Assembly: GCA_036003785.1 (NCBI GenBank)
Contig: DASYSB010000047.1
Span: 18,800-82,799, forward strand
Length of the DNA stretch: 64,000 nt
Source: Nitrososphaera sp.
GTDB taxonomy: Archaea > Thermoproteota > Nitrososphaeria > Nitrososphaerales > Nitrososphaeraceae
Direction: 5' to 3'
The notes under the pieces are model-generated. The model was given only the letters and a program-made list of their open reading frames with translations, made no database searches and was not told the DNA's origin. Shown piece after piece: positions 8,377 to 25,633 of this stretch. Each line of letters starts with the position of its first letter. The first letter of the stretch is position 1. A program made the translations under genes and the position numbers.

Positions 8377-9830
8377 ACGAAAATAGCGTCAGGGAAATTG
8401 ACGTATCGCGCAACCTGCTGCCTGTAAAGGTCTCAGAAAATCTGCAGTCAGTTTTTGCCAAGGCTCGCAAAGAGAATAGTCCGGTGCTTGCAATAGTGAC
8501 TGGCACCAAGCCTGATTTTTACAAGCAGGCACCGCTGGTCATAGAGGCGGCAAAAGAAAACCTGCCTGTTTTCGTAATAAACACAGGCCAACACTTTGAC
8601 GAAATCCTTGGGTTTGGCATAGAAGAATTTAATCTACAACAATTCGTTGGCTGCAACCTCCAGATTAGAGGCGATCTGATGGAAAAGGCAAGTGAAATGA
8701 TAATCAAATTCGGCTCATTTGGCCGGTACTGCAGGAAGCACTTTGGCACAGAATCGCTTCTTCCAATAGTCCATGGCGACACACTGGTTGCAGGCATTGC
8801 TCCACTTGCCTGGGTCTTTGGAATGGGCCAGAAGGTGGGCCAAAACGAGGCAGGTCTCCGTTCCATGAGCCCAGAAGCGATCAAGAAGTTGAAGGCTGGT
8901 AAAGATCCGACAAAATCAGAAGTCCGCAACTTCATCGGCAGCCAGTTTGACGGCAAGTGGTTCCTTGCAAGGGAAGAGCCTTTCCCGGAGCAGATCGATA
9001 CGTGGATATGTTCTGCCGGTACACAATTCTTTTTTGCACCCACGAAGCTCAACAAGGACAACCTCATAAGGGAAGGCTATCCTGAGAACTTTGTCCATGT
9101 AGTGGGTAACTCTGTCGTTGACGCCATACATCAGAAGAGGAAGGAAAAGTCAAGACAGAGCATATTTGATTTTTATCCGCAATTGGAAAAGGACGATTGG
9201 CTGAGGATGGACATTCACAGGCGCGAGAATCTGACGCAGAGGCGATTTACGTCAATAATCGGAGGACTTGTCGACTTGATAAAGAACACAGACAAAAAAG
9301 TAGTTCTGGTTATGCTAAATGCAACAGTTGCAGCGCTAAAGCAATACAACCTTGAGTCAAAATTGCAAAACCTTGCGAAGGAAAATCCTGATAAATTCTT
9401 GATGACACCGCTTTGGAAAGAGTATGCCAATGTTATTGAATTTCTTGACAGCGGCCGGTGCTGGGCTGAAATGACGGACTCGGGTTCGATGCAGGAAGAG
9501 TTACTTTATTTCCCTAAAGTTACATCGCTGACAGTCAGGCTCAACACCGACAGGCCTGAAACGATATTTGATGCCAAGAGCAACGTGCTGGTTCCGCCGC
9601 TCAGCCCCGGCTGGATAGCCTCAATTGTCAACGAGACGTACAACAGGAAAGAGGGCATAGGAATGAAGCTGCGGCGGAAAAAGCAGATCTACGGCAAGCC
9701 GGGACAGGTGTCAAAGAGCATAATCAAGATAATCAAGAAAGAGTTTGAAAACGGCGACGCCAACTTTTACCCCTGGCTACACCAGAGACTTGGGCTCTGG
9801 AAAGAAGGGCAAGGACTCGACTACATGTAG
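8373..9830 (+). CDS. wecB: UDP-N-acetylglucosamine 2-epimerase
   Basis: GTKPDFYK, NTGQH, VHGDT, EAGLRS, VGNSVVDA, HRREN, TDSGSMQEE. Confidence 0.9.
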   Translation: MNENSVREIDVSRNLLPVKVSENLQSVFAKARKENSPVLAIVTGTKPDFYKQAPLVIEAAKENLPVFVINTGQHFDEILGFGIEEFNLQQFVGCNLQIRGDLMEKASEMIIKFGSFGRYCRKHFGTESLLPIVHGDTLVAGIAPLAWVFGMGQKVGQNEAGLRSMSPEAIKKLKAGKDPTKSEVRNFIGSQFDGKWFLAREEPFPEQIDTWICSAGTQFFFAPTKLNKDNLIREGYPENFVHVVGNSVVDAIHQKRKEKSRQSIFDFYPQLEKDDWLRMDIHRRENLTQRRFTSIIGGLVDLIKNTDKKVVLVMLNATVAALKQYNLESKLQNLAKENPDKFLMTPLWKEYANVIEFLDSGRCWAEMTDSGSMQEELLYFPKVTSLTVRLNTDRPETIFDAKSNVLVPPLSPGWIASIVNETYNRKEGIGMKLRRKKQIYGKPGQVSKSIIKIIKKEFENGDANFYPWLHQRLGLWKEGQGLDYM

Positions 9831-11090
9831 CTAGAGGGCAAACTTAGCCTTTCGCACACCGGCGCGCTTTCTTTGGAGTGCAGTCATGGAAAAGACATCT
9901 TTAATCATCTGCTCGTAGGCCTTGCTCATTGTCTGGTTCCGCCTAGACATCATTTTTTTCTGTGTGTCTATGGCAGAGCGAAGCTCCAGCTCGGCATTCT
10001 TTGCCCCAATGCTGGCGCCGTAAATAGTAAAACTTGGCACATCTTCCGCGACAAGGCCGTGTAGGTGAGATGAAACACCGATCCGTCTGCCGCTGTAAAT
10101 GAGCGCGCCAATCGAAGTCTTGGCCATATCTGCGATGAATGAGCCAACCTTGTTTTGGCCCGTGTCGACTTTGGCGCTGCCGCTTCCAACCTTGATGTTT
10201 CCGTACGTCATTTTCAGGTCCGAAGTCGTAGTCATTGCCCCAATGTTGACCCACTCGCCCACATACGAGTGGCCGATAAAGCCCGCGTGTGCCTTGTTCG
10301 TGTGATCAGAAATTATCGAGTGCTCTATCTCCCCACCTACTCTGCAGTTGTAGCCAACATAACTTGATTCAATTATTGTGAATTGTTTTACCTGCGTACT
10401 ACCGCCAATGCAAACGGGCCCGACTATTCTGCTTGTCGCAACGTACGCATCTGGTCCGATGTATATGCCGCCCTTCCTTGCGTCAAGTACTGTCCCGTCC
10501 TCGACAGAGGCGTTCCTGCCAATCGCTATTGTATGATTGCCAGCAACGCGGACACCGGGTCCCACGTCGCTTTCATCTTGAATATTTGTTGTCTGCAATG
10601 CAAGCGAATTTTCAATAATGCTAATGATATCCCATGGCTCGGATAGGAGGCCTTGGCTTTCTTCTGTCTTCAGCTTTGTGGACTTCTGTGCATTCAATTT
10701 CTTGATGTCGAACTTTTTGCCTGACGCGACGCATTCAGCAAGATATTCTGTGCCCTTCCTGTCGAGCCTTGCAACAAGGAGCCTTTCGCCGGCAGTTATC
10801 ACAAAAGTATGGTCTACTTTCTCGAGCCGCTCAGGGTATATCGCTCCAGGATGGAGAAGGCCGTTGACAAACACCGTGTCGCTATCTATAGAACTGGGGT
10901 TGACCTTTGATTGGAGGTGCCGTTCGCTTGTGACGCCAGCAAGATATTCCCTTGTCAACAACACTTCAGGCGTCACTTGATGTTCTTCAAAAAAGCTCTT
11001 TGCCCCAACCTTGATGTCAAAAGTTGCCTTTGTAAACGAGATCGGAGAGAAGTTCAGCCAATGCGAGTCCTCAAACAGGGCTATGCCCAT
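9831..11090 (-). CDS. Sugar nucleotidyltransferase-like protein with left-handed beta-helix (GlmU-like)
   Basis: N-terminal FSPISFTKATFDIKVG; hexapeptide repeats; KAHAGFIGHSYVGEWVNIGA. Confidence 0.85.
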   Translation of the reverse strand: MGIALFEDSHWLNFSPISFTKATFDIKVGAKSFFEEHQVTPEVLLTREYLAGVTSERHLQSKVNPSSIDSDTVFVNGLLHPGAIYPERLEKVDHTFVITAGERLLVARLDRKGTEYLAECVASGKKFDIKKLNAQKSTKLKTEESQGLLSEPWDIISIIENSLALQTTNIQDESDVGPGVRVAGNHTIAIGRNASVEDGTVLDARKGGIYIGPDAYVATSRIVGPVCIGGSTQVKQFTIIESSYVGYNCRVGGEIEHSIISDHTNKAHAGFIGHSYVGEWVNIGAMTTTSDLKMTYGNIKVGSGSAKVDTGQNKVGSFIADMAKTSIGALIYSGRRIGVSSHLHGLVAEDVPSFTIYGASIGAKNAELELRSAIDTQKKMMSRRNQTMSKAYEQMIKDVFSMTALQRKRAGVRKAKFAL

Positions 11091-11795
11091 CTAGATCTTG
11101 CCCAGCTTGCTTGCATACTGCTTGTAGGCATCAAGATATGATTTCTTGTCGCCAATGTCAATAAAGCCCGTATCTATCTTGAAACCCTTGACTATCCTCT
11201 TTTGATCCAGCACTTTCCTCACAGTGTCGTCCATCCCAAACGAGCCTGACTTTGGTATTATCTTTAAAAAGTCTGGCTCCATTACATAGCAGCCGATGTT
11301 TATCAGTCCGCTTATCTCAGGCTTTTCACGCCAGGCAGTGACCTTGTTTTGCCCATTGACATCGATAAAGCCGTACCTTAGTTTCGTTGCATAGTGCAAA
11401 AGGGCCATCGTTACAAATGCCTTTGACTGTTTGTGTTGCGTTAACATCTTGCGTAGGTTGAACTCGTAAACAGAGTCGCCATAAACGCATACAAATGAAT
11501 CGTCAAGCAACTTCTCGGCAGTTTTTAATTGGCCCGCTGTGGCAAGGGGCCTCTCTGAACGAGCGTATTCAATCTCAACTCCATAACGCGCTCCGTCCTC
11601 AAAATAATCTTCAATTTGGCGGTGCAGGTAACTGACGCAAACGACGATCTTGTCAATTCCGCCGGAGCCTTTTAGCCACTCGATGATGTATTCGAGAAGA
11701 GGCTTGTTCGCAAGAGGCAGCATAGGCTTTGGGATAAAGAACGTGTATGGCTGCAGCCTCGTGCCTAGGCCTCCTGCCAAAATTACTGCCTTCAT
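11091..11795 (-). CDS. NDP-sugar pyrophosphorylase (mannose-1-phosphate guanylyltransferase-like)
   Basis: MKAVILAGGLGTRLQPYT..PKPMLP; LATAGQL; GD; EKP. Confidence 0.9.
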   Translation of the reverse strand: MKAVILAGGLGTRLQPYTFFIPKPMLPLANKPLLEYIIEWLKGSGGIDKIVVCVSYLHRQIEDYFEDGARYGVEIEYARSERPLATAGQLKTAEKLLDDSFVCVYGDSVYEFNLRKMLTQHKQSKAFVTMALLHYATKLRYGFIDVNGQNKVTAWREKPEISGLINIGCYVMEPDFLKIIPKSGSFGMDDTVRKVLDQKRIVKGFKIDTGFIDIGDKKSYLDAYKQYASKLGKI

Positions 11796-11934
11796 ATTTC
11801 CTGTCCTTTTTCTGGTTCTGCTCTATATAAGGTAAAACGATGAAATATCGAGAGCGACTTTACTACATGGCCGAACATAATGACATCAATAATATCTCAA
11901 CGGTTGACTGTAACCGCTTGTCTGTGTACGTGCA

Positions 11935-12640
11935 CTACTTCAAGTTTTTTATATATTCACGCGTCCAATGGAACCTTTGAATTTTCACTAGTGGAATTAC
12001 CTGCTGAAAGTCTTTTCGTTTGCCGACAATAACGTTAGCCAGCTGCCGGACGTTGTCAAATAGAATGTTTTGGTAAGTATGCTTCTTTGCTTTGTAATTC
12101 ACGGCTGCATTAAAGTTCAGGCTAATTCTCTCAATCAATTTCTTGGCAGTTGCAGGCTTGAGTCTCGAGTGGTAGTTCTCTGTCACAATAAAATCAGACT
12201 TTTTCAGTTTCTTTTCTTCAAGCATTTGTAAAACTGAAAGGTCGACTAGCCACCTAAAAAGCTCTTGGATGTCATACACAAGTGGAGTTTTGGACTGTGC
12301 AAGCTCGTGTAAAAAGCCAATTGTAGGGTCAAGTCCAATAGCATTAATGTCCTTTCTTATTTCTGATTCTAATACCGCATAGCCATAATTCAGCAATGCG
12401 TCCACTTCATCTGAAGCATTCATGTTCCAAGAGTACGACTTGCTTCCGCGCTTTGCAAGATGAAACTCTGGGCACAGCTTGTTGAATATCTTTGCAAGGA
12501 CGCTCCAATAGTAGGTAGCGATTCGGCCTTCATAGTTGAGCAGGTTTTTTTATTGACTGTGAGCAATTTTCAAAGTTAATTCTTTCGCGGATAAACACTT
12601 TCTGAACTTCTGCAATCGTTATCCCGTCATAATATCGAGC
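11935..12640 (-). pseudogene. cas1: Stand-alone Cas1 (casposase-like), 5'-truncated and frameshifted
   Basis: LLNYEGRIATYYW, NASDEVDALLNYGYAVLESE, GLDPTIGFLH, LVYDIQELFRWLVD. The frame is open to 12549. After a +1 A in an A7 run (12545-12551), RYYDGITIAEVQKVF continues in another frame to ~12637. The N-terminus is absent. Confidence 0.9.
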
Positions 12641-12801
12641 CTCCTTCGGCCCTTATGGGATTGAACATGATTGTTGAAAGCTACGGCGGAAGAAATTATT
12701 CATTTTCAGAAATTTCAAAAATGCTAACGGCAGCTGGTTTTAAGAGGATTGAGAAAAAAACGTTGGCGACACCAGCAGAATTGATTATCGAATACAAGTA
12801 G
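12637..12801 (+). pseudogene. C-terminal stump of a SAM-dependent O-methyltransferase
   Basis: Manual translation PSALMGLNMIVESYGGRNYSFSEISKMLTAAGFKRIEKKTLATPAELIIEYK* matches the typical class I O-methyltransferase C-terminus. No SAM-binding N-terminal part is present. Confidence 0.62.
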
Positions 12802-12941: not shown

Positions 12942-13100
12942 ATGCCGGCGCGATGGCGATGTATGAAATGCAAGATTGAATTCAACGGCGACGGTGCCTC
13001 AAGGCATTATTTGGCTCATCCAGCTCACAAGTTGGTAAAGCTGCCTCCAGCACCCAAAGTGATCAGCTCCTCAAGCTTCAAGGGAGGAATGGTTGCTTGA
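12942..13100 (+). CDS. 52-aa C2H2-like zinc-finger microprotein (paralog of 25496-25633)
   Basis: MPARWRCMKCKIEFNGDGASRHYLAHPAHKLVKLPPAPKVISSSSFKGGMVA; 25/45 ungapped identities to the copy at 25.5 kb. Confidence 0.78.
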   Translation: MPARWRCMKCKIEFNGDGASRHYLAHPAHKLVKLPPAPKVISSSSFKGGMVA

Positions 13101-13167: not shown

Positions 13168-14523
13168 TTAATTCTTGAGTATTGACTCGATCTTGGCTAC
13201 AACCTCATTCGGACTTCTGCCAAAGATTATTATCATTGGCTCTTTGCCAATGTCGCCTTTGTGGTAAACGACGTCTGCTCTTGGGTTCTTTCTAAGAGCC
13301 TGGAGAATTCCCCAATACACGCTCGATCCTTCCTTCTTCTTGATGCTTTTCGGCTCTTTGCTCCTGTCGTAGCTTGACACTGAAAATAATGATCTACACA
13401 ATTTCACAAGCCGGTCGTCGAACCTTATGTTAATACCCGCTCTCATACTAGGGTTAATTCGCATATGCGCAAGTATTGCTGATGCAACATGGCGCGACGC
13501 ACCAAACTCGATGTATGATGCCGGCACTGCGGTGTTACCGATCTTTACTATTCTTCCTCGTACTCCTGCGACTTGTGATATATCTTCCGCGGCAGGCAGC
13601 GCATATACAAAATTCGTTTGAGTTTCAGGTATCAAACGGTAAAAGCCTTCAAGCGTGCTGACATGTTTGACAGCCTGCTGTAATTCTGCCAATACTTGAT
13701 AACGATTGGCATCGCGATAAATGGCAGAAAGTGGATTTGTAACAGGCAAACCTCTACCCACGTTGACAGCATTTTTGATAGCAACATGGACATACTCGTT
13801 GGCCATTTTGCACGCGTCGCCCACTGATATGCCTCTGGCAAGGTATGCGGTGACAGCAGAGGAAAAGTTGCAACCAGAACCATGGCTTTCTTTTATCCTT
13901 ATCCTTGGGTTTGTTAATTTAGTTACCCTGCCTTTGCTGTCAAGCAACAGGTCACTAACGTTCAGAGCCCCGAAGTGGCCACCTTTTACAATGACATTTT
14001 CCGCTCCAAGTCCTCTTATCTTCCTGGCTGCCTCGATACCATCATGTTCGGTCCTGATTTTTATTCCTGCAAGTTTTTCGGCTTCAAACCTGTTGGGGGT
14101 TATCAGCGTGCTCATTGGTAACAATTTTGAAATAAAGGAATCAAACGCGCTGTCGAGAAGCAATTTTGCGCCTGTACCTGCCGCAAGGATAGGGTCAAGC
14201 ACGATTGGAACTCTTGATTTCTTTAGAGATCGATGCACCGCGTCTATTATCTGTCTACTATAGACCATTCCTATCTTAATGGCATTAGGCCGCATGTCTG
14301 TCATGACGGAGAGGATCTGCTGTTCTATAATAGCTGGAGAGACTTCGAATATCTCGGCCACGGTTTTTGTATTCTGCGCGGTTATCGCTGTTATAGCGGT
14401 GCACCCATACACGTCAAGTGCAGAAAACGTCTTGAGATCAGCTTGTATGCCTGCCCCAGCTCCAGAGTCACTGCCTGCTACTGTTAACGCAATCTTCAAG
14501 CAGAGTGATAAAATGTGAAACAC
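13168..14523 (-). CDS. thiD: Bifunctional HMP/HMP-P kinase-thiamine phosphate synthase ThiDN
   Basis: LTVAGSDSGAGAGIQADLKTF, TPNRFEA, HGSGC; C-terminal ThiN domain LIPETQTNFVYA...FGASRHVA...GKEPMI. Confidence 0.95.
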   Translation of the reverse strand: MFHILSLCLKIALTVAGSDSGAGAGIQADLKTFSALDVYGCTAITAITAQNTKTVAEIFEVSPAIIEQQILSVMTDMRPNAIKIGMVYSRQIIDAVHRSLKKSRVPIVLDPILAAGTGAKLLLDSAFDSFISKLLPMSTLITPNRFEAEKLAGIKIRTEHDGIEAARKIRGLGAENVIVKGGHFGALNVSDLLLDSKGRVTKLTNPRIRIKESHGSGCNFSSAVTAYLARGISVGDACKMANEYVHVAIKNAVNVGRGLPVTNPLSAIYRDANRYQVLAELQQAVKHVSTLEGFYRLIPETQTNFVYALPAAEDISQVAGVRGRIVKIGNTAVPASYIEFGASRHVASAILAHMRINPSMRAGINIRFDDRLVKLCRSLFSVSSYDRSKEPKSIKKKEGSSVYWGILQALRKNPRADVVYHKGDIGKEPMIIIFGRSPNEVVAKIESILKN

Positions 14524-25495: not shown

Positions 25496-25633
25496 TTACC
25501 GCACACTTTTTACCGGCTTGACAGGTGGAGGCAGTTTTTCGAGCTTGTGATTGGGGTTTGCAAGGTAATGCCTAGAAGCACCTTCGCCGCTCAGCACAAT
25601 ATTGCAGTGAACACACCTGTATCTAATCGCCAT
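25496..25633 (-). CDS. 45-aa C2H2-like zinc-finger microprotein (paralog of 12942-13100)
   Basis: Manual translation: MAIRYRCVHCNIVLSGEGASRHYLANPNHKLEKLPPPVKPVKSVR. Confidence 0.8.
   Translation of the reverse strand: MAIRYRCVHCNIVLSGEGASRHYLANPNHKLEKLPPPVKPVKSVR

What the first reader, a model, noticed from the sequence alone, without database searches (positions are those of the whole stretch)
11935..12640. Orphan casposase-like cas1 relic with no CRISPR array or cas2
Seen: ~235 codons of Cas1 including the metal-binding E (NYEGR), H (GFLH) and D/E (YDIQE) motifs. There is one frameshift in an A7 run, no N-terminus, and no repeats, cas2 or cas4 nearby. Established: stand-alone Cas1 proteins include casposon integrases, known from Thaumarchaeota. 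Inference: this is the footprint of a decayed casposon or Cas1-solo element inserted between the nucleotidyltransferase gene and thiD.
Basis: partly seen in the sequence, partly recalled or inferred. Interest (0 to 1): 0.6.

Follow-up and report, generated by a model that had tools for sequence, protein, structure and literature searches.

The report
Broken casposon integrase gene fragment
This is a dead, doubly truncated piece of the integrase gene of a casposon (a self-replicating transposon related to CRISPR's Cas1) left in the chromosome of a soil ammonia-oxidising archaeon; it is a real but ordinary relic of a known kind of mobile element.

Summary
Window 11935-12652 (minus strand) encodes about 226 residues of a Cas1-family protein in two frames. 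They are joined at an A7 run (12545-12551). All four catalytic residues are kept.

A maximum-likelihood tree puts it inside the casposase clade whose members carry a C-terminal helix-turn-helix (family-2 type). That clade includes the characterised Aciduliprofundum boonei enzyme (support 99/99). It is separate from family-1 casposases and from cas2-linked CRISPR Cas1 of the same order. The closest intact relatives (about 75-80% identity, about 400 aa) sit beside large family B polymerases.

The relic lacks about 126 N-terminal and about 50 C-terminal residues. No TIR or significant TSD survives, and the genome shows no polymerase remnant, cas2 or CRISPR array.

The insertion picture needs correcting. 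At least 12 congeners have thiD and the nucleotidyltransferase gene adjacent. The closest congener has CBS, O-methyltransferase and zinc-finger genes there. In this genome a 740-bp casposase patch replaces the CBS gene and the 5' 85% of the methyltransferase gene.

Three independent metagenome assemblies carry the same locus. One has A6, so the frameshift is a young polymorphism.

Verdict: a decayed casposon footprint, a known kind, of low interest.

The parts
11935..12549 (-). Casposase (Cas1) fragment, frame A. It has 204 codons plus the stop and covers residues ~158-352 of a ~402-aa family-2-type casposase. It carries the E, H and D/E catalytic motifs. The last ~12 codons before the stop no longer align, and the HTH domain is absent.
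   Evidence: Pfam and NCBIfam matches; alignment A2; tree
12545..12551 (-). A7 homopolymer carrying a +1 frameshift. The run is A6 (in frame) in the natural variant L098.
12554..12652 (-). Casposase fragment, frame B. It covers residues ~127-158 (the ARYY...NFENCSQS stretch). The gene is cut off on its 5' side at about 12639-12652.
   Evidence: Alignment A2
11899..12638 (.). A 740-bp patch with no counterpart in the closest congener G034. It stands in place of G034 C13:10437-12175, which holds the CBS gene and the 5' 890 bp of the O-methyltransferase gene.
   Evidence: blastn against G034 contig C13; ORFs and Pfam of G034
12639..12801 (+). 3' fragment (last ~48 codons) of an O-methyltransferase gene (PF00891 type), cut at the junction with the casposase patch. 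The gene is full length (351 aa) in G034.
12942..13100 (+). Small C2H2-like zinc-finger gene (52 aa). It is intact and lies downstream of the methyltransferase gene, as in G034, so it belongs to the older inserted block and not to the casposon.
11796..11898 (.). Promoter region of the nucleotidyltransferase gene (TATA-like TTATATA on the minus strand) plus flank shared with G034. Similarity to the more distant 'empty-site' congeners ends at about 11846.
11091..11795 (-). Nucleotidyltransferase gene (flank).
13168..14523 (-). thiD/ThiN gene (flank).

Best explanation
The stretch is a non-functional remnant of the integrase (casposase) gene of a family-2-type casposon. Such an element is a self-synthesising transposon whose Cas1-like integrase carries a C-terminal helix-turn-helix.

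The element, or a piece of it, entered the variable region between thiD and the nucleotidyltransferase gene in the lineage of this Nitrososphaera population. This happened after the split from its closest sequenced congener. That region already held CBS, O-methyltransferase and zinc-finger genes.

Later deletions removed both casposon ends, its polymerase and other genes, the casposase N-terminal domain and HTH, the host CBS gene and most of the methyltransferase gene. A 740-bp patch is left. More recently, a one-base expansion of an A6 run to A7 added a frameshift in most of the population.

- **Shown here:** what the fragment is, its clade, both truncations, the absence of the other casposon parts, the empty or different site in relatives, and the population polymorphism.
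- **Inferred:** the order of events, and that a whole casposon (not only a fragment) once sat here.
For: - **Cas1 family.** Matches at E about 1e-34.
- **Closest structure.** The best PDB hit is the M. mazei casposase 6OPM (140.7 bits, against 63 for the best CRISPR Cas1). The identity of 6OPM is confirmed in PMC6977970.
- **Known casposase relative.** 63% identity to the A. boonei casposase (P0211).
- **Tree.** In the careful ML tree the relic sits inside the HTH-type clade (99/99), in a six-row subclade (100/99). It is separate from family-1 casposases (100/100) and from cas2-adjacent CRISPR Cas1 of the same order (97/96).
- **Closest intact relatives.** P0122 lies in a locus with a 907-aa family B polymerase, and P0149 lies beside a 941-aa PolB.
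- **Truncations.** Alignment A2 shows residues ~127-352 only, with the catalytic residues kept.
- **Missing casposon parts.** No PolB match in the genome, and no remnant of the other proteins of the related casposon locus L007. No cas2 or CRISPR-like array.
- **Site in relatives.** At least 12 congeners have thiD and the nucleotidyltransferase gene adjacent. G034 has an intact CBS gene and a 351-aa O-methyltransferase where the patch lies and shows no casposase trace.
- **Population.** The same locus occurs in three independent assemblies, with A6 in one. Both substitutions inside the fragment are non-synonymous.
- **Composition.** The patch has 40.4% GC against 47.2% for the window.
- **Wider pattern.** In the 72 genomes of the genus, every high-identity match to this casposase type is a fragment or carries stops. 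This pattern partly rests on the unpublished genome G009.
Against: - No TIRs were found. The only candidate TSD (AAGGTA-AAAC at ~11829 and ~13145) is not significant (p about 0.17 by shuffling). It would in any case belong to the older block, not to the patch.
- A whole casposon at this site is therefore inferred, not shown. Capture of a casposon DNA fragment during repair of a deletion would leave the same picture.
- The fragment has no internal stop codon in 235 codons in the A6 variant. This fits a young relic: about 32 x d stops are expected in the 204-codon frame A at neutral divergence d per site. It does not by itself exclude residual selection.
Confidence: 0.9

Rival explanations
1. 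The truncated ORF is still a working gene. In the A6 variant the frame is open for about 235 codons, with a 220-aa ORF called from an internal GTG. It would make a stand-alone Cas1 catalytic core retained for a host function, for example interfering with incoming casposases or acting as a nuclease.
For: All four catalytic residues are kept. There is no internal stop in the A6 variant. The locus is stable across several independent assemblies.
Against: - It lacks the N-terminal domain, and it lacks the HTH that PMC8464041 reports as indispensable for family-2 integration.
- The window and two of the three other assemblies carry a frameshift. It separates the catalytic Glu from any start codon, since the first ATG/GTG/TTG in frame A is at 12423.
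- Both substitutions between variants are non-synonymous.
- The fragment is absent at this locus in all congeners searched.
- Other copies of this casposase type in the genus are fragments or carry stops.
Confidence: 0.05
2. It is the remnant of a CRISPR-Cas adaptation module (cas1 of a lost CRISPR locus), not of a casposon.
For: It matches Pfam and TIGRFAM Cas1 models. Relatives in the genus do have CRISPR-linked cas1-cas2 pairs.
Against: - The tree separates it from those CRISPR Cas1 with 97-99% support.
- Close full-length relatives carry the casposase-specific C-terminal HTH and sit beside PolB genes.
- No cas2 or CRISPR-like array was found in the genome.
Confidence: 0.01
3. The patch is an assembly or binning artefact: a chimeric join of casposon reads into a host contig.
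For: The genome is a 65-contig draft. The patch has lower GC than its flanks.
Against: The identical 1,421-bp arrangement occurs on a 472-kb contig and on a 1.8-kb contig from other samples. A 99.7% variant occurs in a third sample. Both flanks are syntenic with G034.
Confidence: 0.01
4. No whole casposon ever sat here. A 740-bp piece of casposon DNA was captured as filler when a 1.7-kb deletion (CBS gene plus the 5' part of the methyltransferase gene) was repaired.
For: Both ends of the casposase gene are cut exactly at the borders with host sequence. No TIR, TSD or other casposon gene is left.
Against: It needs a casposon donor in the same cell anyway. Stepwise deletion of integrated elements is the common route. 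The data cannot separate the two scenarios.
Confidence: 0.15

Closest known systems
Family 2 casposases (Aciduliprofundum boonei AciBoo-C1; Methanosarcina mazei, PDB 6OPM; NitNCS1-C1 of Ca. Nitrosotalea okcheonensis)
   Same: - Same Cas1 catalytic core with the E, H and D/E residues.
- 63% identity to the A. boonei enzyme over the retained part, and the best PDB hit is 6OPM.
- Same clade in the tree.
- Close full-length relatives share the C-terminal HTH and a neighbouring large PolB.
   Different: - Only residues ~127-352 are left, so there is no N-terminal domain and no HTH, and there is a frameshift.
- No PolB, HNH or HTH genes, TIRs or TSD remain.
- It is not at a tRNA gene: no tRNA lies in window 1-30000, whereas AciBoo-C1 and NitNCS1-C1 sit in tRNA-Pro (PMC6563490).
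Family 1 casposases of Thaumarchaeota (Nitrosopumilus NitAR1-C1; NitEve-C1 of Ns. evergladensis)
   Same: Same host phylum, the same superfamily of Cas1-like integrases, and no link to CRISPR.
   Different: - Family 1 enzymes are compact (~350 aa), lack the HTH and go with ~600-aa protein-primed PolB.
- They form a separate clade (100/100) that does not contain the window relic.
- The genome's other, intact Cas1 gene (contig C25, next to aEF-2) belongs to that clade.
CRISPR-associated Cas1 (for example the cas1-cas2 pairs of Nitrososphaera relatives; A. fulgidus Cas1, PDB 4N06)
   Same: Same fold family (PF01867) and the same catalytic residues.
   Different: It forms a separate clade (97/96). 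No cas2 or CRISPR-like array was found here. Similarity is much lower (63 bits against 141 bits for the casposase).

Membership tests
Casposase (Cas1-solo group 2), family-2 type | Cas1 domain with the four catalytic residues (E, H, D, D/E) | tested here: met
   PF01867 at E=4e-34. The YEGR, GFLHE and VYDIQE motifs align with P0122 and the A. boonei enzyme.
Casposase (Cas1-solo group 2), family-2 type | Phylogenetic placement in the casposase branch together with A. boonei-type enzymes | tested here: met
   Careful ML tree: inside the HTH-type clade at 99/99, and in a subclade at 100/99. Family 3, family 4 and Cas1-solo group 1 references were not available for the tree.
Casposase (Cas1-solo group 2), family-2 type | C-terminal helix-turn-helix fused to Cas1 | tested here: not met
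   The relic ends at about residue 352 and the HTH (ERK..GINKSTLWY region) is missing. All close full-length relatives have it, and the second relic on contig C20 still encodes it. The feature was lost by truncation, not absent by descent.
Casposon (whole element) | Family B DNA polymerase gene in the same element | tested here: not met
   No PF03175 match in the genome. No tblastn match to any protein of the related casposon locus L007 other than Cas1. Close relatives do have a neighbouring PolB.
Casposon (whole element) | Terminal inverted repeats and a ~13-15 bp target site duplication | tested here: not met
   The TIR alignment is no better than shuffles. The candidate direct repeat has p about 0.17.
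Casposon (whole element) | Insertion that is absent from related genomes | tested here: met
   At least 12 congeners have an empty thiD-nucleotidyltransferase junction. G034 has host genes where the patch lies.
CRISPR-associated Cas1 | Adjacent cas2 and/or a CRISPR array | tested here: not met
   No Cas2 match. No array was found by a k-mer spacing scan. No repeats lie near the locus.
CRISPR-associated Cas1 | Clusters with CRISPR-linked Cas1 in a tree | tested here: not met
   It is separated from eight cas2-adjacent Cas1 of the same order at 97/96.
Family 1 casposase | Compact Cas1 without HTH, in the clade associated with protein-primed PolB and often the aEF-2 target | tested here: not met
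   The window relic lies outside the family-1 clade (100/100). That clade's members lie 3-8 kb from ~600-aa PF03175 polymerases.
Cas1-solo group 1 (Methanomicrobiales) | Incomplete catalytic residue set, vertical inheritance in Methanomicrobiales (PMC4046053) | tested here: not met
   The catalytic set is complete, and the host is a Nitrososphaera-type archaeon. No group 1 sequences were available for the tree.

The most novel reading that the evidence does not exclude
The truncated casposase core is kept as an expressed, HTH-less and N-domain-less Cas1 fragment in part of the population (the A6 variant has a 235-codon open frame). It would act in some host role, for example as a decoy or inhibitor of incoming family-2 casposases. 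In addition, the thiD-nucleotidyltransferase spacer would be a recurrent landing site for different elements in this genus, since three different inserts are seen (G000/G034, G017, G009).
Probability: 0.04. Interest if true: 0.5.

Novelty: new member of a known kind. Interest (0 to 1): 0.15.

Why it matters
It matters only a little.

- It adds a documented case of family-2-type (HTH-bearing) casposase DNA in soil Nitrososphaera. Only one family-2 casposon had been reported for the phylum (NitNCS1-C1; PMC6563490).
- In the 72 genomes of this genus, every copy of this type found is broken. By contrast, compact family-1-type genes are intact in several. This hints at repeated invasion and rapid decay of one casposon family.
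- For annotation, the locus should be called a pseudogene fragment. It is not 'CRISPR-associated endonuclease Cas1' and not evidence of CRISPR immunity.

Tried and rejected
1. **TSD and TIR search.** The direct repeat AAGGTA(G)AAAC at both edges of the thiD-nucleotidyltransferase insert looked like a TSD in the alignment with empty sites. It is not significant, and it bounds the older CBS-methyltransferase-zinc-finger block, not the casposase patch. No inverted repeat was found at the patch or block ends.
2. **TIRs from related casposons.** I considered taking TIRs from related casposons (L007, L040). These contigs end inside the elements, so I dropped the idea.
3. **Hybrid casposon idea.** The 907-aa polymerase next to P0122 was listed as PF03175 (protein-primed type). 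That suggested a hybrid of a family-2 integrase with a family-1 polymerase. My own scan gave weak matches to both PF03175 (38.6 bits) and PF00136 (23.5 bits). The size fits family-2 polymerases, so I rejected the hybrid reading as unsupported.
4. **Motif shared with G017.** An 18-nt similarity between the frameshift region and a repeated TTGACAGTGAGCAA motif in the G017 insert (E=0.056) is best taken as chance. The window sequence there is ordinary casposase coding sequence.
5. **Second TSD on contig C25.** A search for a second copy of the aEF-2 terminal motif on contig C25, to delimit the family-1 element, gave only 2-3-mismatch hits.
6. **Neighbouring fragments.** Pfam gave nothing significant for the 40-aa upstream piece, the methyltransferase fragment or the zinc-finger ORF on their own.

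Full report
**What is in the sequence**

- On the minus strand, a 204-codon open frame (12549..11938, stop at 11935-11937) matches Pfam Cas_Cas1 (E=4.2e-34, profile positions 150-280 of 283). It also matches TIGR00287 (E=1.5e-34).
- Just upstream, in another frame, 12652..12554 continues the homology.
- The two frames meet at an A7 run (T7 on the plus strand, 12545-12551). One base fewer would join them.
- Aligned with full-length relatives of about 400 aa, the relic covers residues ~127-352.
- The catalytic Glu (YEGR), His (GFLHE) and Asp/Glu (VYDIQE) are present.
- The N-terminal ~126 residues are missing. So are the C-terminal ~50 residues, which form a helix-turn-helix in the relatives.
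- The last dozen codons before the stop no longer align with the family.

**Which Cas1 it is**

- The fragment's best match among solved structures is 6OPM (140.7 bits, E=4.4e-40). The best CRISPR Cas1 reaches 63 bits. 6OPM is the Methanosarcina mazei casposase (PMC6977970).
- Database searches gave hundreds of relatives at 60-82% identity from Nitrososphaerales, Nitrosopumilus, Thermoplasmatota and DPANN metagenome bins.
- The full-length relatives are about 400 aa and end in the motif ERK..GINKSTLWY.
- The Aciduliprofundum boonei enzyme (P0211) is 63% identical to the relic.
- Krupovic et al. 2014 (PMC4046053) and Wang et al. 2021 (PMC8464041) state that a C-terminal HTH is the mark of family 2 casposases. 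Family 1 enzymes are compact and lack it.
- I built a tree (for the sequence sets) from four kinds of sequence:
  - 21 HTH-type proteins.
  - 12 compact Cas1 from the same order. Several of these lie 3-8 kb from ~600-aa PF03175 polymerases, so they are family 1.
  - 8 Cas1 that sit next to cas2, so they are CRISPR-linked.
  - The window fragment.
- In the careful maximum-likelihood tree the fragment lies inside the HTH-type clade (ultrafast bootstrap / SH-aLRT 99/99), in a six-member subclade (100/99).
- The family-1 clade (100/100) and the CRISPR clade (97/96) are separate.
- Two close intact relatives sit beside large family B polymerases. P0122 lies in a locus with a 907-aa polymerase, and P0149 lies beside a 941-aa polymerase.
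- Other intact relatives stand without any polymerase nearby.

**What is left of the element**

- The genome is a 1.73-Mb, 65-contig draft, 93% complete. It has no PF03175 match.
- It has no tblastn match to any protein of the related casposon locus L007 except Cas1.
- It has no Cas2 and no CRISPR-like array.
- It has only a borderline Cas4-like match, on another contig.
- No tRNA gene lies within window 1-30000.
- No inverted repeats bound the region, and the one candidate direct repeat is not significant (p about 0.17).

**The site in relatives**

- In at least 12 genomes of the same genus, the thiD stop and the nucleotidyltransferase start are 14-70 bp apart. The 1.3 kb between them in the window is therefore not ancestral.
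- The closest congener, G034 (79-87% nucleotide identity in the matched flanks), is not empty either. Next to the nucleotidyltransferase gene it has four genes, after which its contig ends:
  - a CBS-pair gene;
  - a 351-aa O-methyltransferase gene (PF00891);
  - the same small zinc-finger gene as window 12942-13100;
  - a second zinc-finger ORF.
- Window similarity to G034 runs to 11898 and resumes at 12639.
- Between these points G034 has 1,739 bp (the CBS gene plus the first 890 bp of the methyltransferase gene). The window has 740 bp, essentially the casposase fragment.
- The 48-codon ORF at 12655-12801 is the orphaned 3' end of the methyltransferase gene.
- G034 shows no casposase trace.
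- There are therefore two layers. The older block (CBS, methyltransferase, zinc finger) is shared with G034. The later event is specific to this lineage: it brought in casposon DNA and destroyed two host genes.
- A third genome, G017, has an unrelated ~950-bp insert at the same spacer. The spacer is a variable spot in the genus.

**Population evidence**

- The relic's protein cluster has members from other samples.
- A 472-kb JGI contig and a 1.8-kb contig carry the same locus at 100% identity over 1,421 bp, A7 included.
- A third contig (L098) is 99.7% identical but has A6, which gives an uninterrupted 235-codon frame.
- The locus is therefore real, and the truncations are older than the frameshift. 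The frameshift is a recent polymorphism, or less likely a homopolymer error shared by three assemblies.
- The two substitutions inside the fragment are both non-synonymous.
- No stop has accumulated in the 204-codon frame A. About 32 x d stops are expected there at neutral divergence d per site. This points to inactivation after the split from G034, not an ancient one.

**Wider pattern**

- The same genome holds a second, more eroded relic of the same clade on contig C20. It is about 77% identical in DNA, with the HTH part still readable.
- The genome also holds an intact 370-aa family-1-type casposase gene 113 bp downstream of aEF-2, with no polymerase. The aEF-2 3' end is the classical family-1 target (PMC6563490).
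- Across the 72 genomes of the genus, every high-identity match to the HTH-type casposase is partial or carries stops.
- Claims that rest on unpublished genomes:
  - G009 contributes some of the fragment counts and one of the non-empty thiD junctions.
  - G009, G044-G047 and G074 are among the 65 genomes counted for the zinc-finger family.

**Verdict**

Three details need correcting:
- the family is family-2 type;
- the structure of the site is composite, with two host genes destroyed;
- the C-terminal truncation was missed.

This is a known kind of relic. It is of low general interest but useful for correct annotation.

Noticed in passing
G000 contig C25:4643-5755 (locus L001 1324-2436, minus strand): An intact 370-aa compact Cas1 with a full catalytic set lies 113 bp downstream of the aEF-2 stop, the classical family-1 casposon target. 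It clusters with family-1 casposases (100/100). No protein-primed PolB was found anywhere in the genome, and the neighbouring genes encode secreted or membrane proteins. It may be a solo or domesticated family-1 casposase.
   Followed up: partly
G000 contig C20:38436-38950 (L003 1179-1701; L095 8428-8950, minus strand): A second, more eroded relic of the same HTH-type casposase (residues ~228-400 in at least two frames). It is about 77% identical in DNA to the window relic and is wedged after a 75-aa Lrp/AsnC-like ORF. No tRNA lies nearby.
   Followed up: partly
window 12639-12801 (+): The orphaned 3' end (48 codons) of an O-methyltransferase gene. The gene is full length (351 aa, PF00891 plus a dimerisation domain) in congener G034. 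The neighbouring CBS gene of G034 is wholly missing here.
   Followed up: yes
window 12942-13100 (+) and 25505-25633 (-): The small C2H2-like zinc-finger ORF belongs to a family matched in 65 of 72 genomes of the genus (the count includes unpublished genomes). A closer paralogue group (66-88% identity) occurs in about 15 genomes. It is followed by a second zinc-finger ORF in G034, G005 and G001. It is a host gene family, not casposon cargo.
   Followed up: partly
L009 (G017:C235), between thiD and the nucleotidyltransferase gene: A different ~950-bp insert sits at the same spacer. It encodes a protein that I judged by eye to be regulator-like with a C-terminal C2H2 finger. It is flanked by a 10-bp direct repeat (AGTTCAATAA) that occurs once in empty sites. 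This suggests the spacer is a recurrent insertion spot.
   Followed up: no
L006 about 9780-10000 (upstream of P0040): The N-terminal domain of this related casposase is readable upstream of the called 349-aa gene. It is cut off by an in-frame stop at a position that is Trp in relatives. Many database 'Cas1' entries of 230-356 aa in this family may likewise be truncated or broken gene calls.
   Followed up: partly
L004 9135-9986 and L006 8784-9746: Truncated casposase genes in two long metagenome contigs are each preceded on the same strand by an unannotated 283-320-aa gene. The two upstream proteins do not look alike by eye.
   Followed up: no
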